Of a stretch of DNA of 64,000 bases, positions 9,001 through 63,800 are shown in pieces. The position numbers were made by a program. Origin of the DNA: Mizuhopecten yessoensis (taxonomy: Eukaryota); contig NW_018404117.1 of assembly GCF_002113885.1 (NCBI RefSeq), positions 211,201 through 275,200 of the forward strand. Reading direction: 5' to 3'. Position 1 is the first letter of the stretch, and the number at the start of each line of letters is the position of its first letter.

Positions 9001-12000
9001 CCTGAACAAGGCCCAAGCCTGAGCCATCCGCGTTCTTACACACTCCCATATTGTATATGTATTCCTCACAACACACAAATGGTTGATCAGAAAATGTTAA
9101 AAACATTCTGCTGATACACATTTTCTTACCCGTTTTATTCGGAAGTTACGGATGGTAAGTTGAGCAATCTCCATGGTGGAGTCGAGCCAAATGTGGATGT
9201 CGCCATGGCGAACATACTTCTGCATACTAAACACATCTCCCCAGTATTTGTCGCATTGTTGCTGTAAATACAGAAAACAGATGTCATTAATCTTTTCATA
9301 TCTCATCTTGTGACTAGATCACTTCAATCCATTCATCCCGAATCTCATGTTATCCAAACTTCTTATCACAAATTTTACATTTTCTCATGCAATCTCATAA
9401 ACATTCAAATGTCAATCTCATGAATGTGCATTCCCATGTTGTAAGTGTATCTTATAAAATTAAAAATTCTTCATCTCATCAACAACAAATGATTTGTGAA
9501 CACAACACTGCAAACGAGACTATATATCGAGTGAGACTATATATCGCGAGTGAGACAATATATTGAGTGAGACTATATATTGAGTGAGACTGTATATCGC
9601 GAGTGAGACTATATATCGAGTGAGACTATATATCGCGAGTGAGACAATGTATTTTGTGAGACTTTTAATATATCGCGAGTGAGACAATATATTGAGTGAG
9701 ACTATATATCGCGAGCGAGACTATATATCGAGCGAGACTATATATTGAGTGAGACTATATTTTGAGTGAGACTATATATCGCGAACGAGACTATATATTG
9801 AGTGAGACTATATATCGCGAGTGAGACCATATATCGCGAGTGAGACAATATATTGAGTGAGACTATATATCGCGAGCGAGACTATATATCGAGCGAGACT
9901 ATATATTGAGTGAGACTATATTTTGAGTGAGACCATATATCGCGAGTGAGACTATATATATTGAGTGAGACTATATATATCAAGTGAGACCATATATCGC
10001 GAGTGAGACCATATATCGCGAGTGAGACTGTATATCGCGAGTGAGACTATATATCGCTGTTATTACTGGTGTAAAGTGCTCTCTGTATGTTTTAACTAGT
10101 GATGTATTACAACAGGTAGTAAGTATAATACTACATCACTGTTCAGCATTAATTTTGTTTTCAGGCATCATATACATTGTATACTGGATTTGACATAATA
10201 AGGGTGATGACATGGGTAAAGGATGAGTGGCGTGCCTTTTTAATCAGACATGCTCTCCCAAAACAACATATACCTTGTCATTTGAATATTTGCTCACCAC
10301 AGCCGACACATGAAGTATTCTCTTCATCCTATTCCCATTATGATTTTCCCAGTAATAAAGCAATTAATCATTGAATGATTCTAAAGGTCACTGTATCTGC
10401 AGATAATATAATATGGCAGCTTTGTTTTTATTCAATACACTCATATTTATACAGTGCCATTTTGTGAGAGGTGGCATAATTCATAAAACCAACCTGATGA
10501 CTTCAGAGAACTTCCAAAATTCTGAAAATGGTAATTAGAGAAGGTGCCCTTATTATGTCAAATAAGGTATCTGGAGTAACTAGATCAATATCTGTTCATT
10601 AACACACGTGCTTCAGCTAAAAAATAACACTTTACGTAATTTAAACTTTAAAGAAGCCTAAGAAAACACATGTTGAACAGTAAGATTTGACTAGTGTTTA
10701 AGTGAATATATATAACGGTGACAAATAAAACATCTGTCTGCCTAAAGAAGCCAAAGGAAGGCCGTTGAGGCCTAGCGGTTAGTCTTGGATAGTTATTATC
10801 TTATTATATATAATATATATCATCAGCCCATGCCTTGTAATAAGCCCACCCTTTAGCCGACACCTTAACGGAGGTGAAAGCAAATAATATTTCAGTGTAT
10901 TTCAATACATTTTATTTACAGATTCGATGAGGAAAACTGAAGTAAACAAATAGATAAATAAATATGACTATCAAATTTGACTGCTTTCTGATTAGCTTAC
11001 TTAGTCAACAGAATGTTTGGCTTGTCCATTATAAATCTAGTCATGACAAATGGGAAGTCCATTTTTTGTCACTATAGCAACATTCAAGCAGAGTTAGCCT
11101 TTTACGTCGATCCATTTTCATGTCTGGACTTGTCAATTTTAAATTACTAACTAGAAACCTATTGTGAAAAAATATCAAATAACAAATTTCTTGACTTTTA
11201 TCTGGTGAATTCCAGTATGGAACAATATTCTATAATTGTTTTATATTTTTATAATCAATATTTGTTTATTACCAAGATACATTAAATTTGGTAATGATCA
11301 AACCTCAAAATATGATAATAAAAAATCATGGTGTCCACAGTAAAAGTCAACCATAAATCTGTATTTATAACCAATATCAACAATAAACACTTCAAAATAT
11401 CAATCTTAGTATAAAGTGATGCTATCTGACACCTGTATAAACAGAATTGAATATTTATAGAAGACATGTATACATTTATGTATGATTGGTGTTTAATCCT
11501 TAACTTAATTAAGTTTCAAAGTTTAAAGAAAACTTATGATGGACTATCTGTGTTAATAAGACTGTAGTGCTGCAGTAAAAAGGGGCAATAACTCTGTCAA
11601 TATCACAGTAAAGATAGAAAACCCTTCCACAACTTAAACACATGATAGTTACAGGTTAATACATTAAATCTTAGGGAATTTAGGCTGAATATATAAGACT
11701 TAAAATATTCTGACAAAATTGTGTTTAGGGATTGATAGATTGACAAACAGTTTTATTGAGAAGAAATATAATAAACAGAACCTGTGCTTAAATATTTGAT
11801 ATAAATGTCTAGTGTCTTAAAACAAAAGTTATTTTTGTATTCAAAAATTACACAAAGGATTCTTTTGAAAACTCTGTTGACGTAGATGTTTTATGATGTA
11901 ATTTATCCTAAAAAGAAAGCGGAACAAAACTGTGTGGTTACAAAAAATGGATGGAAGGGTAATTGTATTTTATGCTGCCACTCAGAATGATGTATGTCTG

Positions 12001-60800: not shown

Positions 60801-63800
60801 CAAAATTGCAGTAGTATCAAGGTGACGCTACTGTAGCTTCTGTATGATGGAACAACAATAAACATGCTTTCCAAACATTTTATAATAACATCGAGGATGA
60901 TATTAATGACCAATTTCTGGATGACAAAAGAACTTGTACACATGTAGGTATAATGCTGTTCTAATAATAGCAAATACATGTTAATGACTAATATTAAAAT
61001 AAACACAGGACAGTAAAAAGAAAATCAATCTTGCCGTGATTTTTTACCGGTCAGAATTGGTATAATGTATTGGCTGTTGACACCAACAAGCTTTGTTTTA
61101 ATTAATTAGGAACACTTTGTGTCATAGAAAGTTTGTTGTTGTCCATAGGAAGTAGGCCATCCTAATCAATTTCCTTCTCTATACATCAACTAATTTAGCA
61201 GTAATTTATACGGATGGGAGTTTTGGATGTGATAAGTGGAAGCACTGGTACAGTGTCATTAATCTGTATTGTAAAAAAATGTAATTATCAAATGGTCTTA
61301 TAGCCCAATACCTCTATACCTTTTATCTACATATTTTAATCAGGTAGTACAGTCAGTTATACCCTACAATCTGTATATGTATAAGAATATCATTTACATT
61401 CAATACCAACCAATGTTATGTTGTTATAGGAATATTTCCAACACTCAGTACAACTTCCATAGCCTTAAACAACCTGAATCGTTAAAGAAATATTATTAAC
61501 ATTCATATCAACCTAAATAGCCTACAAAGCAATGCATCAAAATTTAAATTTTTACACAAACAATAAATTAGGTATCAAACCTTCAGGACTGACTGATCTA
61601 TGTGTTAAGTATCAGCCTATATACTGTAAATTGTAATAGGCATATTTCTATCAAACACGCAGTTCAGCCTACATTTAGCCTACATGATGTATTGTAACAT
61701 CCGGTACAACCATATATAGTGTATGTTCTACAGCTGACATTAACTGTTATTTGGATATTATAATCAACGCCCAGTGCAGCCTGTACATGTTCTGTAAACA
61801 TACAACCCTTACTGGTTTAGACAATCAACGCCTACTTTGTAACAGCCTAAAGCGGATATTATACACTTATTGTCCTTGTTATAGCAATAGGGAAACATGA
61901 ATCCTTGTTTCCCTGAGACTAATGTTGTATCCTTAATGTTGCACAGAAGGCAATTATAAAATCTGTAATTACAATTTTGAAATGAACCCTAAATTGGACT
62001 ATAAGTTCAGCTATCATCAATATTAATTTGTGATGCATGGTTTCTTTTTAAATAATTTTCTTTACAAAACTCATGGACTAACTTGTGATGGTATATTTCT
62101 TGTCAGAACATCTTTCTACAAACTCATATGGATATGGAACTTTCTTACTGCTTCCATTATAGTTAATACAAAAATAATTATCATCTATTTCACCTCTATG
62201 TAACTTTAGTAAACTCTACCATGCATTGATCTGGATGAGTCCATTATGGTCCACAGTGGTGAAAGAGTTATTTCACAACATATTTAACCAAACTAGAAAC
62301 AAATATCAAAATCAGATCCCAGGAATAAAAGAAAGAAAAAAAGGACAATTATACAAAGTAGATCGAGTGTTAATTAGATTTTACCTTCATTTAAATAATT
62401 GTAAGAAGATAAGAATGTGTCGATACTTACCCTGACTTCAATGTTGAGATATTTGTCAGACTTTTTCTGTTTCAACCTCTGCAAGAAGTTTTCGGCCATA
62501 ATAGGGTCTCTCTTGACAGCTGTCACCGCTTTCTCCTCTCGATCTGAATTAGAAACATCAAAGCCAAATGCAGATCTGAGATTGTTGATACGTCGGTTCA
62601 ATGCCACCAGTAATTGTTTCCCCATATTTCCTGCTTCACTCATCAAGCTTCAACATCAGCTTCACAATCCGAACGAAAATCGTAGGAAAATATTTCATTT
62701 GAATTTCAGAAATATCCTTTTAACTATAGTACATGAGGATTGTAATTTGTATGTGAGACACTGTTTACTGATGGCCACGGGAGGGCGATGTTTTGGATGT
62801 GCAGTGTGGACTCTCTCTGCACACCCATAGCTTAGTCACCATACTCGACAGATTTCCTATTTATGGAACGGTGAGGAAACCAAAATCTAACATTGTCACA
62901 TGATTCTTGTGTGCTGTCGCCTTTTTTATCTCCTGGTTGTCCGTGTTAGCCCGGTGACACAGTCAGGAGATAGTACGCTAGTGTAGCACTAAGCGCATGT
63001 ACCGTGTAACGGCACAATTACACGCTGACATCACAAATAACAATACCTATACTCTTCCAGTCGTGCGGGACTCTATTTCCGTCTTAAATTGTCGTGACAA
63101 TTATAAATATCTACAGCTGTTACTACTCATGAAATAACTGAATTGCGACAATATATGACCCTTTGTCTCAGGATACACACAGTATCCGCTCTCTCTAATA
63201 ATCCATAATTCTGTCTGAATCTCGACGAGGAGTGAAGACGCTACACTTTCTCCAGCTCATTTCCAATGGTTGACAGATGCATGCAATTAAAACATGTACA
63301 GATCAGCACATAGAATTATGAGATCTATGATAAAACTTATGTGTCTATCCGTCGGGGTGTACTGAACCCCTGATCTAATGGCAATGATTACTATACTGAG
63401 ATGCCAGCCGTGTTACACCTGCAGGGAAAAGTCAACACGAATATAATTCTAAATTTCTGGTGCTGGCAATTGATTGCAGAGTGATTGTAGGTAATGTGGC
63501 GGTGTCAATGAGAGCATACCCAGCCTTGGGAAACTTTGAACTGAAATCCACACTGTGACAGAATCAGTGGATATAGGCCGATATTTGCCTAGTGGCAACC
63601 GGTATTGATGTTACGGTAACAATAGGCCATACATGAATATAAACATTGAAACAGGGACACTTATATATATACTCAGCCGACTTCCCCATCCGCTCCAGCG
63701 GCCAATTAATCATTCATGGTCGTTGGTAATAGTACTGGAACCACAGCGTGGCAGTTGGAAGTACAGAATTTCACCAGGTACAGACTTATTTGTCACACAA

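What the first reader, a model, noticed from the sequence alone, without database searches (positions are those of the whole stretch)
9130..62643. Receptor-type PTP D1-like domain lacking key phosphotyrosine-recognition residues: candidate pseudophosphatase or altered-specificity enzyme
Seen: the spliced protein has NVLKNVNQD where classical PTPs have NxxKNRYxD, QCDKYWG instead of KCxxYWP, AFW for DFW and GYINA for DYINA. All six exons keep the reading frame and strong splice sites across >53 kb. Established: the KNRY Tyr (PTP1B Tyr46) sets pocket depth for pTyr, the motif-7 Lys (Lys120) lines the active site, and loss of that Tyr is typical of inactive D2 domains. Inference: the gene is maintained but probably not a conventional pTyr phosphatase. 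The catalytic exons are outside the window, so activity cannot be called.
[Added by the scan's program, not by the reader: the finding's places include an assembly gap (unread letters, written N; its length is only estimated) at 19042 to 19709. Whether the letters on both sides are continuous or in frame is not known: test that first.]
Basis: partly seen in the sequence, partly recalled or inferred. Interest (0 to 1): 0.72.

Follow-up and report, generated by a model that had tools for sequence, protein, structure and literature searches.

The report
Scallop Ptp36E-like tandem pseudophosphatase gene
The window holds the first six coding exons of a real, strongly conserved scallop gene for a two-domain tyrosine-phosphatase-like protein whose first domain has lost most of the residues needed to recognise and hydrolyse phosphotyrosine, so it probably works by binding rather than by catalysis.

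Summary
Six minus-strand exons (62643-62431, 44410-44320, 33094-33021, 20258-20222, 17766-17669, 9261-9130) have GT-AG borders and compatible phases. They encode NVLKNVNQD, GYINA, AFW and QQCDKYWG. The N gap (19042-19709) lies in an intron, inside a 156-bp repeat array, and hides no coding sequence of this domain.

Exon-by-exon searches find orthologues in scallops (43 of 44 identical in the last exon), other bivalves and gastropods. A full-length orthologue also finds Octopus, a chiton, a brachiopod, an annelid, a bryozoan and arthropods. One arthropod relative is named Ptp36E by NCBI. The gene tree follows the species tree.

Loss of the KNRY tyrosine and Lys-to-Gln in motif 7 are family-wide, so this is not a decaying copy. 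GYINA is specific to this genome and AFW is not diagnostic.

The nearest orthologues show what lies left of base 1:
- WPD is replaced by FND.
- HCX5R is replaced by HCRCGGGK.
- The first Q-loop Gln is Arg.
- The second domain has Ser for the catalytic Cys.

Both domains are equally conserved. My reading is a double pseudophosphatase of the PTPRU kind; an altered-specificity enzyme is not excluded. This is a new member of a known kind, of moderate interest.

The parts
62431..62643 (-). Exon A, the first coding exon of the non-membrane isoform (MSEAGNMGKQLLVAL...KYLNIEVR, 71 codons). A second in-frame ATG at 62625 is the start used in the Pinctada and gastropod models. An inferred internal acceptor (AG at 62545-62544) would let upstream transmembrane exons join at 62543, ahead of REEKAVTAVKRDPI.
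   Evidence: There is an in-frame stop two codons upstream of 62643. The exon is 67/71 identical to the Pecten P0002 N-terminus. Argopecten P0001, Mytilus P0006 and Crassostrea P0010 share only the part from D-REEKAV onward. The internal acceptor is inferred from these isoforms, not from transcripts.
44320..44410 (-). Exon B (AIVRNQDEFPYSVSMTPENVLKNVNQDVVP plus 1 base). It carries the degenerate motif 1, KNVN in place of KNRY.
   Evidence: E = 2.5e-13 to P0002, 29/30 identical. The alignment of the Pecten orthologue to human RPTP sigma puts KNVN opposite KNRY. Pfam does not recognise this exon on its own.
33021..33094 (-). Exon C (2 bases plus DHARVILQSVPHRENGYINASYID). It carries YDHxRV and the GYINA variant of DYINA.
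   Evidence: (Pfam PF00102 positions 14-36, E = 6e-4). It is the least conserved exon, 17/24 identical to Pecten.
20222..20258 (-). Exon D', a 37-nt mini-exon (GYSQEKEYIASQ plus 1 base).
   Evidence: It is 12/12 identical to Argopecten. Its phases 0 to 1 link exon C to exon D, and it fills Pfam profile positions 37-49.
19042..19709 (.). Assembly gap (N) inside the D'-to-D intron, within a 156-bp tandem repeat (flanking copies 18934-19041 and 19710-20047).
   Evidence: No residues of the orthologues are unaccounted for across it. It was not filled.
17669..17766 (-). Exon D (2 bases plus PKQKTVPAFWHMVWQESVHCIVMATGLFENAS). It carries motifs 4-6 with AFW.
   Evidence: (Pfam PF00102 positions 50-79, E = 6e-8). 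The best solved match is RPTP epsilon D1 (domain i-E = 0.0042; whole chain E = 1.2e-8).
9130..9261 (-). Exon E (QQCDKYWGDVFSMQKYVRHGDIHIWLDSTMEIAQLTIRNFRIKR). It carries motif 7 with Gln for Lys and Gly for Pro. It is the last exon of the gene inside the window.
   Evidence: 98% identical to Argopecten and Pecten, 84% to Crassostrea, 61-66% to gastropods. It is not recognisable on its own to Pfam or PDB. No further orthologue residues map to 1-9129.

Best explanation
The window contains the 5' third of a pectinid (scallop) gene on the minus strand. It holds the first coding exon of a cytosolic isoform and five exons of the membrane-proximal PTP domain (D1), as far as the strand after motif 7.

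The gene is the mollusc orthologue of a protostome-wide, single-copy family of small tandem-PTP proteins. NCBI names one arthropod member Ptp36E. Lophotrochozoan members also have an isoform with a 30-55-residue glycosylatable N-terminus and one transmembrane helix.

Shown in the sequence:
- D1 lacks the KNRY tyrosine and arginine, and the motif-7 lysine.
- In the nearest orthologues D1 also lacks the WPD tryptophan and proline (FND) and the first Q-loop glutamine (Arg). In scallops, oysters, mussels and a unionid it lacks the P-loop arginine as well (Lys).
- D2 has Ser for the catalytic Cys.
- Both domains are under equally strong conservation.

Inferred: the protein is catalytically dead or nearly so towards phosphotyrosine. 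It would act non-catalytically, as shown for human PTPRU, through a membrane-tethered or cytosolic scaffold whose conserved anion-binding pocket (HCRCGGG[R/K]T, QQCDKYW) and surfaces bind partners or compete for the substrates of active phosphatases. The free exchange of Arg and Lys in an otherwise invariant P-loop fits phosphate binding better than transition-state catalysis.
For: Gene structure and gap.

Orthologues and names: (P0135, 'Ptp36E isoform X2 [Maniola hyperantus]', is 77% identical to the Drosophila member P0092).

Tree of 39 rows: SH-aLRT is 100 for the protostome clade, 100 for arthropods, 99 for lophotrochozoans and 100 for molluscs. The order follows the species tree, and scallop end branches are 0.03-0.05.

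Motif mapping against solved human RPTPs:
- KNRY/KNVN, DFW/AFW, KC/QC, YWP/YWG, WPDHGVP/FNDEATD, HCSAGVGRTG/HCRCGGGKTS, MVQTEDQY/MVRTLYQY.
-, D2: VHCSAGAGRTG opposite IMSKDGYTRCG.

Tallies over 120 aligned rows:
- Tyr46-equivalent: 0/30 molluscs, 1/63 arthropod rows, and Y or F in 8/8 outgroup rows.
- Lys120-equivalent: Gln 35/35 molluscs, Met 64/66 arthropods, Lys 8/8 outgroup.
- Trp179-equivalent: Phe 36/40 molluscs.
- Arg221-equivalent: Arg 27 and Lys 13 of 40 molluscs.
- Gln262-equivalent: Arg 36/40 molluscs.
- D2 Cys: Ser 37/38 molluscs and 65/66 arthropods, Cys 8/8 outgroup.

Conservation over 22 conchiferans, 14 bivalves and 8 gastropods:
- Invariant columns are 62/239 in D1, 60/251 in D2 and 0/207 in the C-terminal tail.
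- HCRCGG is invariant.

Structure:
- The AlphaFold model of the Pecten orthologue has two confident PTP domains.
- It superposes on the RPTP sigma, alpha and LAR tandem structures at TM about 0.9.

Precedent:
- PTPRU has two pseudophosphatase domains, keeps its Cys and binds the substrates of related phosphatases (PMC7320164, abstract read).
- Transplanting its divergent pTyr-recognition loop into PTPRK abolishes activity (same paper, section 8 read).

The PTP1B residue numbers and the roles of these residues come from established knowledge, recalled, and from no call.
Against: - No activity data exist for any member. The catalytic exons of this very gene lie outside the window, so FND, HCRCGGGK and the D2 state are inferred from orthologues 91-100% identical in neighbouring exons.
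- Several catalytic elements persist in molluscs: His214 and Cys215 equivalents in 40/40 and 39/40 rows, an acidic residue at the general-acid position in 39/40 (Asp 32, Glu 7), the second Q-loop Gln in 39/39 covering rows, and Arg221 in 27/40.
- Such strict conservation of the P-loop could equally mean retained chemistry on another substrate.
- No transcripts were available to confirm splicing or the two isoforms.
- dN/dS could not be computed, because no orthologous coding DNA was at hand.
Confidence: 0.6

Rival explanations
1. D1 is an active enzyme with altered specificity. The pocket is made shallower by loss of the KNRY tyrosine. A Cys nucleophile, an Arg or Lys, and an Asp or Glu on the modified F-x-D/E loop would hydrolyse something other than pTyr, such as pSer/pThr, a phosphoinositide or a small phosphomonoester.
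For: - Cys215 and His214 equivalents are present in 39/40 and 40/40 mollusc rows. An acid sits at the general-acid position in 39/40, and the second Q-loop Gln in 39/39 covering rows.
- HCRCGG is invariant over 22 conchiferans, so the pocket is under selection.
- The less derived lophotrochozoan members look nearer to competent. Lingula has HCGSGAGRTG, MVQN..QY and W-G-E. Owenia has KNSY, DFW and HCSSGGGRTG.
- PTPRQ is listed in the PDB as a phosphatidylinositol phosphatase of the PTP fold (4ikc).
Against: - The P-loop Arg is Lys in 13/40 mollusc rows, including both scallops. From recalled mutagenesis of PTP1B and YopH, Arg-to-Lys costs orders of magnitude in kcat.
- Trp to Phe and Pro to Asn in the WPD hinge, and Gln262 to Arg, each impair canonical catalysis (recalled).
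- The Arg/Lys exchange occurs without any compensating change in the rest of the invariant P-loop.
Confidence: 0.28
2. The locus is a decaying copy, that is a pseudogene or relaxed paralogue of a canonical RPTP, and the odd motifs are neutral damage.
For: - Exon C is less conserved than the others (17/24 identical to Pecten).
- GYINA is private to this genome among the three scallops.
- The downstream exons cannot be seen.
Against: - All six exons are open, phased and GT-AG bordered.
- Identity to Pecten is 92% over 213 codons, summed. The same odd residues (N-V-N, QQC) recur across bivalves and gastropods.
- There is one copy per species and the tree follows the species tree.
- No canonical KNRY orthologue exists among the 30 mollusc rows that cover the site.
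Confidence: 0.03
3. It is a member of the IA-2/PTPRN family of inactive, dense-core-vesicle PTP-like proteins. I recalled that these also have a non-Tyr KNRx motif and a QC-x-x-YWP motif.
For: There is a recalled resemblance in YDHAR and QCD-YW. IA-2 and IA-2beta structures do appear among the PDB hits (2i1y, 2qep).
Against: - For exon D they rank far below RPTP epsilon and alpha: E = 0.02-0.04 against 1e-8.
- For the whole orthologue they score 131 bits, against 317 for RPTP sigma.
- The orthologues have two PTP domains (Pfam, 2 stretches), not one.
Confidence: 0.02
4. The exon chain is an assembly artefact. The N gap would join unrelated pieces, so that exons to its right and left belong to different genes or copies.
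For: A gap of only estimated length sits between exons D' and D. The region is rich in tandem repeats, and a 1274-bp stretch is duplicated at 100% identity at 33680-35253.
Against: - The exons on both sides are consecutive residues of the same orthologues, with matching strand, order and phase.
- Both gap flanks are same-orientation copies of one 156-bp repeat.
Confidence: 0.03

Closest known systems
Arthropod Ptp36E-type proteins. P0135 is named Ptp36E by NCBI in Maniola hyperantus. P0092 in Drosophila sulfurigaster carries the automatic name 'RPTP kappa'.
   Same: - They fall in the same family by tree (protostome clade SH-aLRT 100).
- They have the same two-domain layout and D2 Ser for Cys (65/66 rows).
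- They have lost the KNRY Tyr (KNQN in 60/63 covering rows), lack the motif-7 Lys, and have no canonical WPD.
   Different: - Arthropods keep Trp (W-H-S) but have no acid at the general-acid position (Ser 60, Cys 6 of 66). Molluscs have F-x-D/E.
- Arthropods have Met where molluscs have Gln at the Lys120 position, and HCNDGGGRSG where molluscs have HCRCGGG[R/K]T.
- That Drosophila melanogaster Ptp36E itself belongs here is recalled and supported only by the NCBI name of P0135.
- Five papers in the library mention Ptp36E and three were listed. I read the passages on it in two of them, and neither describes its biochemistry.
Human PTPRU, the RPTP with two pseudophosphatase domains.
   Same: - It is a tandem RPTP whose D1 keeps the catalytic Cys yet is inactive through several combined changes, including a divergent pTyr-recognition loop.
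- It acts by binding substrates (PMC7320164, abstract and section 8 read).
- It gives a working model for how the scallop protein may act.
   Different: - It is not orthologous. The PTPRU D1 structure 6sub scores 147 bits against the Pecten orthologue, while RPTP sigma scores 317.
- PTPRU has a large MAM-Ig-FN3 ectodomain (recalled). The mollusc receptor isoform has only about 30-55 residues before its single hydrophobic segment.
- The substitutions differ from those of PTPRU.
Vertebrate R4 RPTPs (PTPRA, PTPRE) and type IIa RPTPs (LAR, sigma, delta).
   Same: - These are the best solved matches. D1 matches RPTP sigma and LAR (185 bits). Exon D and D2 match RPTP epsilon and alpha.
- The predicted tandem fold superposes at TM about 0.9.
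- Like PTPRE (recalled), the gene has a very short glycosylatable ectodomain isoform and a cytosolic isoform from an alternative first exon.
   Different: - Identity is only about 28-30%.
- Canonical KNRY, K-C, WPD, HCSAGxGRTG and QT..Q are present there and absent here.
- D2 there keeps the Cys, as in the outgroup rows (8/8).
- Subfamily orthology was not resolved.
IA-2/PTPRN pseudophosphatases.
   Same: They are classical-PTP-fold proteins regarded as inactive.
   Different: They have a single PTP domain and match much more weakly. This gene is not a member.

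Membership tests
Classical PTP fold (Pfam PF00102 Y_phosphatase) | A significant match to the Y_phosphatase profile. | tested here: met
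   - Exon D alone gives 33 bits (cut-off 20.9). Exon C alone gives 19.9 bits, just under the cut-off. Exons B and E are not recognised alone.
- The orthologues score 325-368 bits with two or three matched stretches.
Catalytically competent classical pTyr phosphatase | Motif 1, KNRY, with the pTyr-stacking Tyr (PTP1B Tyr46, recalled numbering). | tested here: not met
   The window has KNVN. It aligns opposite the KNRY of RPTP sigma. Tyr is present in 0/30 mollusc rows.
Catalytically competent classical pTyr phosphatase | Motif 7, K-C-x-x-Y-W-P, with the Lys120-equivalent. | tested here: not met
   The window has QQCDKYWG. Gln is present in 35/35 mollusc rows and Lys in 8/8 outgroup rows.
Catalytically competent classical pTyr phosphatase | A WPD loop with the general-acid Asp on a Trp-Pro hinge. 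| tested here: inconclusive
   The exon is outside the window. The scallop orthologues have F-N-D, with the Asp aligned to the WPD Asp. Among molluscs Phe is present in 36/40 rows and an acid in 39/40. The hinge is lost and the acid is kept.
Catalytically competent classical pTyr phosphatase | A P-loop H-C-X5-R-[ST]. | tested here: inconclusive
   The exon is outside the window. The orthologues have HCRCGGGKT in scallops, oysters, mussels, Pinctada, Tegillarca and Potamilus (13/40 Lys) and HCRCGGGRT elsewhere (27/40 Arg). Cys is present in 39/40 rows.
Catalytically competent classical pTyr phosphatase | A Q-loop with both glutamines (Q262 and Q266, recalled numbering). | tested here: inconclusive
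   The exon is outside the window. In the orthologues the first Gln is Arg in 36/40 rows and the second Gln is kept in 39/39 covering rows.
Receptor-type PTP | A transmembrane segment N-terminal to the PTP domains. | tested here: inconclusive
   - The window does not have it. Exon A starts a non-membrane isoform, with a maximum 19-residue hydropathy of 0.31 in the Pecten equivalent.
- The Argopecten, Mytilus, Crassostrea, Solemya and Saccostrea isoforms have one hydrophobic 19-mer (Kyte-Doolittle 2.3-2.6) after 28-39 residues that carry N-x-S/T sites.
- The transmembrane exon did not map to the window.
Protostome Ptp36E-like tandem PTP family | Two PTP domains, D2 with Ser for the catalytic Cys and NRxK[SN]RD in motif 1, and placement inside the protostome clade. 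| tested here: met
   - Met for the orthologues to which the window's six exons are 92% (Pecten) identical.
- The window's own D2 is outside the window and cannot be read.
IA-2/PTPRN | A single PTP domain, with IA-2 as the closest relative. | tested here: not met
   The orthologues have two domains. IA-2 structures rank far below the RPTP sigma, epsilon and alpha structures.

The most novel reading that the evidence does not exclude
A protostome-wide family of small RPTP-like proteins, Ptp36E in insects and this gene in molluscs, may be a second and far older case of an RPTP with two pseudophosphatase domains.

Its D1 pocket would no longer be a pTyr hydrolase. It would be kept under strict selection as a non-hydrolytic phospho-ligand reader, or as a redox switch built on the mollusc-invariant C-x-C of HCRCGGG. 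It would be deployed from two promoters, as a membrane-anchored form and a cytosolic form.

The free Arg/Lys exchange in an otherwise frozen P-loop would then be the signature of binding without catalysis.
Probability: 0.3. Interest if true: 0.6.

Novelty: new member of a known kind. Interest (0 to 1): 0.4.

Why it matters
Pseudophosphatases are increasingly seen as regulators in their own right. PTPRU has been described as unique among human RPTPs in having two dead domains (PMC7320164, abstract).

If this reading holds, protostomes have carried an unrelated tandem RPTP of the same design since before molluscs and arthropods split. It would offer:
- natural Arg/Lys and Trp/Phe variants of the active site that can be compared biochemically;
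- a genetically tractable insect orthologue (Ptp36E) that appears uncharacterised.

For annotation, it shows that the automatic names 'RPTP epsilon/kappa/mu-like' on these mollusc proteins imply an activity and an orthology that the sequences do not support.

Tried and rejected
- IA-2/PTPRN idea, from recalled motif resemblance. Rejected on hit ranking and domain number.
- Exons B and E alone give nothing in Pfam, and exon E alone finds no PTP in the PDB; its only hits are cellulases at E about 1. Single short exons are a weak probe. The orthologue route was what worked.
- Search for further exons in 1-9129 and 62644-64000, by tblastn with four orthologues. None was found. The best off-model hits had E >= 2.
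- Nine intronic or flanking ORFs of 113-274 aa have no Pfam family. There are no tRNAs and no Rfam family at gathering score.
A name search through relatives gave only the Maniola 'Ptp36E' label.
- Literature:
  - 'Ptp36E' occurs in 5 papers. The passages I read in two of the three listed were not about its function.
  - Combined gene-name search: only the RNAi-screen paper.
  - Mollusc PTP survey search: nothing relevant among the 15 listed.
  - Pseudophosphatase searches: PTPRU, PTPRK and HD-PTP papers only.
  - The Aedes PTP paper covers soluble PTPs only.
- In one search one extra column ('A_shared') was out of frame by my own error and is ignored.
- Not done:
  - dN/dS was not computed, because there is no orthologous coding DNA.
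  - The search of protein representatives, the protein-atlas search, complex prediction and genome contigs (prokaryotes only) were not used.
  - The metagenome and viral collections and paper supplements were closed.

Full report
**What is in the window.** The window is AT-rich (36% G+C) and has one long N run, 19042-19709, plus single Ns at 7703 and 7889. It is not human. Every protein match is to bivalve molluscs, closest to scallops.

Reading the DNA around them gives six exons:

| Exon | Coordinates | Length | Encodes |
|---|---|---|---|
| A | 62643-62431 | 71 codons | start of a non-membrane isoform |
| B | 44410-44320 | 91 nt | KNVN motif |
| C | 33094-33021 | 74 nt | YDHxRV, GYINA |
| D' | 20258-20222 | 37 nt | mini-exon |
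| D | 17766-17669 | 98 nt | AFW, motifs 4-6 |
| E | 9261-9130 | 132 nt | QQCDKYWG |

Every border is GT-AG with a pyrimidine-rich acceptor. The phases chain without a break. The introns are about 18.0, 11.2, 12.8, 2.5 (including the gap estimate) and 8.4 kb.

Each exon was sent on its own. Full-length questions were put to named orthologues from other species.

**The gap, tested first.**
- The N run lies in the intron between the 37-nt exon D' and exon D.
- Pfam's Y_phosphatase profile matches exon C at positions 14-36 and exon D at positions 50-79. The 12 codons plus one base of exon D' account for positions 37-49.
- In the Argopecten orthologue the residues encoded by D' and D are contiguous. 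tblastn finds no unplaced orthologue residues.
- The two flanks of the gap are same-orientation copies of one 156-bp repeat. This explains why the assembly broke there.
- The gap therefore hides no coding sequence of this domain, and strand, order and phase are continuous across it. Its real length is unknown, and I did not try to fill it.

**Relatives.**
- Exon E alone (44 aa), searched against longer proteins, returned 20 hits. Argopecten irradians and Pecten maximus are 98% identical. Pinctada is 91%, Tegillarca 89%, Mytilus and Crassostrea 84%, Solemya and Potamilus 68%, and four gastropods 61-66%.
- Exon by exon, the window against Pecten is 67/71, 29/30, 17/24, 10/12, 31/32 and 43/44 identical.
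- The Pecten protein P0002 (857 aa) then found 226 proteins at E <= 1e-30, of which 120 were listed. These include more bivalves and gastropods, Octopus, a chiton, Lingula, the annelid Owenia, a bryozoan, and a large arthropod set of 600-750-aa proteins. Only after those come hemichordate and vertebrate RPTPs with canonical motifs.
- A search from the Drosophila member listed a butterfly relative that NCBI calls 'Ptp36E' (P0135). That the D. melanogaster gene Ptp36E is the fly member is my recollection, supported only by this label.
- A maximum-likelihood tree of 39 of these rows (quick search, 681 columns, outgroup of 5 deuterostome rows) gives SH-aLRT 100 for the protostome clade, 100 for arthropods, 99 for lophotrochozoans and 100 for molluscs. 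There is one sequence per species and an order that follows the species tree. Three rows have long branches (bryozoan, Polypterus, Octopus) and their exact places are unsure.

**What the unseen exons look like.** No orthologue residue beyond ...RNFRIKR maps to 1-9129, which is mostly tandem repeats. The scallop orthologues supply them.

Aligned to human RPTP sigma D1, the Pecten protein compares as follows:

| Canonical (RPTP sigma) | Pecten orthologue |
|---|---|
| KNRY | KNVN |
| DFW | AFW |
| K-C | Q-C |
| YWP | YWG |
| WPDHGVP | FNDEATD (the Asp aligned to the general-acid Asp) |
| HCSAGVGRTG | HCRCGGGKTS |
| MVQTEDQY | MVRTLYQY |

Its second domain, aligned to RPTP epsilon D2, has IMSKDGYTRCG opposite VHCSAGAGRTG. 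The catalytic Cys is Ser and the His is Met.

**How general each change is.** These are tallies over 120 aligned rows: 40 named molluscs, 3 other lophotrochozoans, 66 arthropod-type rows, 8 outgroup rows and 3 unnamed mollusc-like rows left out of the counts. The PTP1B numbering is recalled.

| Position | Molluscs | Arthropod rows | Outgroup |
|---|---|---|---|
| Tyr46 | 0/30 covering rows (N 13, K 7, C 6, others 4) | 1/63 (horseshoe crab) | Y or F 8/8 |
| Lys120 | Gln 35/35 | Met 64/66 | Lys 8/8 |
| Trp179 | Phe 36/40 | Trp 66/66 | Trp 8/8 |
| General acid | Asp 32, Glu 7, Met 1 of 40 | Ser 60, Cys 6 of 66 | Asp 8/8 |
| Cys215 | 39/40 (the chiton has Gly) | Cys 66/66 | Cys 8/8 |
| Arg221 | Arg 27, Lys 13 of 40 | Arg 65/66 | Arg 8/8 |
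| First Q-loop Gln | Arg 36/40 | Glu 58/66 | Gln 8/8 |
| D2 Cys | Ser 37/38 | Ser 65/66 | Cys 8/8 |

- The 13 Lys rows are 2 scallops, Pinctada, Tegillarca, Mytilus, 5 Crassostrea isoforms or entries, 2 Saccostrea and Potamilus.
- Owenia also keeps the Tyr46 equivalent.
- The D2 Cys is also Ser in all three other lophotrochozoans.
- GYINA is not. Pecten and Argopecten have DYINA, and 21 of 30 covering mollusc rows have Asp.
- The Asp of DFW varies even within the arthropod members, so AFW says little.

**Is it maintained?**
- Across 22 conchiferan sequences, 62 of 239 D1 columns and 60 of 251 D2 columns are invariant, against 0 of 207 in the C-terminal tail. The 22 are 14 bivalves and 8 gastropods; the header printed by the script miscounted them as 13 and 9.
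- HCRCGG is invariant, QCDKYW is nearly so, and so is ATGLFEN.
- An AlphaFold model of the Pecten protein, built with a 34-row alignment, gives two confident PTP domains (most 10-residue blocks at pLDDT 84-97). It has a disordered tail from 639. One poorly modelled stretch, 167-182, is FENASQQCDKYWGDVF, the motif-7 segment encoded across the exon D/E junction.
- The model superposes on the tandem structures of RPTP sigma, alpha, LAR and epsilon at target-normalised TM 0.88-0.91 and 28-30% identity.
- This is a folded, selected protein, not a decaying copy. A proper dN/dS could not be run, because no orthologous coding DNA was available.

**Isoforms.**
- Exon A opens with an ATG at 62643, two codons after an in-frame stop. 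It matches the N-terminus of the Pecten model.
- A second ATG at 62625 (MGKQLL...) is where the Pinctada and gastropod models start.
- Argopecten, Mytilus, Crassostrea, Saccostrea and Solemya also have models that replace this N-terminus. They carry 28-39 residues with N-x-S/T sites followed by one strongly hydrophobic 19-mer (Kyte-Doolittle 2.3-2.6). They rejoin the common sequence at D-REEKAV.
- In the window an AG at 62545-62544, behind a T-rich tract, would serve as the acceptor for that isoform. This is an inference from orthologues and not from transcripts.
- 'Receptor-type' is thus true of the gene family, but the transmembrane exon is not in the window.

**How it most likely works.**
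- Shown: the residues that define a pTyr-specific, catalytically efficient classical PTP are largely gone from D1 and D2, yet both domains are conserved.
- Established knowledge, recalled:
  - The KNRY Tyr sets pocket depth.
  - Lys120 and the Trp-Pro hinge govern WPD-loop closure.
  - The P-loop Arg stabilises the transition state, and its replacement by Lys costs orders of magnitude.
  - The first Q-loop Gln positions the hydrolytic water.
- Read in print: PTPRU has two pseudophosphatase domains, keeps its Cys, and binds the substrates of related enzymes. Its divergent pTyr-recognition loop alone inactivates PTPRK when transplanted (PMC7320164, abstract and section 8).
- Inferred: the scallop protein is a double pseudophosphatase that acts by binding, from the membrane or the cytosol depending on the first exon.
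- The exchange of Arg and Lys within an otherwise invariant P-loop fits an anion-binding role better than a catalytic one.
- The main rival is an altered-specificity enzyme. It stays alive because Cys, His, an acid on the modified loop, the second Gln and, in 27 of 40 mollusc rows, the Arg all persist.

**Comparison with what is known, and novelty.**
- By tree, the gene is a member of the protostome Ptp36E-like family.
- By mechanism, it resembles PTPRU.
- By sequence and fold, its nearest solved relatives are type IIa RPTPs for D1 and R4 RPTPs for D2. Subfamily orthology to vertebrates is unresolved.
- It is not an IA-2 relative.
- Of the 5 papers in the searchable library that mention Ptp36E, 3 were listed. 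The passages I read in two of them say nothing about its biochemistry. I found nothing on the mollusc proteins.
- Subscription reviews of fly PTPs and paper supplements could not be searched. Prior notice of the degenerate motifs cannot be excluded.
- I rate it a new member of a known kind, of moderate interest.

**Left unchecked.**
- This genome's own downstream exons.
- Transcripts.
- dN/dS.
- Whether deuterostomes or cnidarians have a member. Only the 120 best rows were seen.
- The closed metagenome and viral collections.

Noticed in passing
window 18934-20047: The assembly gap (19042-19709) sits inside a 156-bp tandem repeat. Copies of the unit flank it on both sides in the same orientation, at 67-80% identity across the gap and 94-98% between the right-hand copies.
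   Followed up: yes
window 62543-62545 and 62625: Exon A seems to serve two isoforms. An internal AG acceptor before ..REEKAVTAVK would take upstream transmembrane exons, as in the Argopecten, Mytilus and Crassostrea models. A second ATG (MGKQLL) is the start conserved in Pinctada and in gastropods.
   Followed up: partly
orthologues P0001-P0032 (P-loop of D1): The P-loop Arg is Lys in scallops, oysters, Pinctada, Tegillarca, Mytilus and the unionid Potamilus (13 of 40 mollusc rows). It is Arg in Solemya, heterodont clams and gastropods, within an otherwise invariant HCRCGGG. On the usual bivalve phylogeny this needs at least two changes.
   Followed up: partly
P0035 (Liolophura, chiton) and P0034 (Octopus): The chiton member has Gly in place of the D1 catalytic Cys (VHGRYGGGRTA). 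Octopus has VHCRSGGARTA and a W-E-M loop. The mollusc-invariant C-x-C (HCRC) is therefore a conchiferan feature and not pan-molluscan.
   Followed up: no
Pecten P0002 residues 167-182, equivalent to the window's exon D/E junction (17690-17669 and 9261-9230): AlphaFold models the invariant FENASQQCDKYWGDVF stretch with pLDDT below 50, and partly as a helix. The rest of D1 is above 84. The segment that normally carries Lys120 may be rebuilt in this family.
   Followed up: no
window 33680-36685: A 1274-bp unit is duplicated in tandem at 100% identity over the 300 nt reported (33680-33979 = 34954-35253). It has identical 122-aa ORFs (34086-34454, 35360-35728) and adjoining 55-bp minisatellites. 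It could be a recent duplication or an assembly artefact.
   Followed up: partly
window 1-8133: The 9 kb left of the last exon is dominated by satellites. These are 63/108-bp units at 1-358, a 34/238-bp array of about 52 copies at 1088-2841 (strong negative GC skew in 1-4000), and a G-rich 111/214-bp array at 6929-7888 that contains the two single Ns. They give long spurious ORFs such as 7360-8133.
   Followed up: partly
window 23396-25331, 28310-29362, 38082-41463, 41846-43691, 45660-46022, 49846-50122, 59431-59847: The introns carry many further tandem arrays, with periods of 81/454, 37, 43/129, 16, 50, 36, 39 and 28 bp. The 38-44 kb block is strongly A-over-T skewed (AT skew 0.27-0.37).
   Followed up: no
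window 55892-57287: A 316-bp repeat (2-3 copies) carries open frames of 207-274 aa on the plus strand with no Pfam family. It is probably a repeated element and not a gene.
   Followed up: partly
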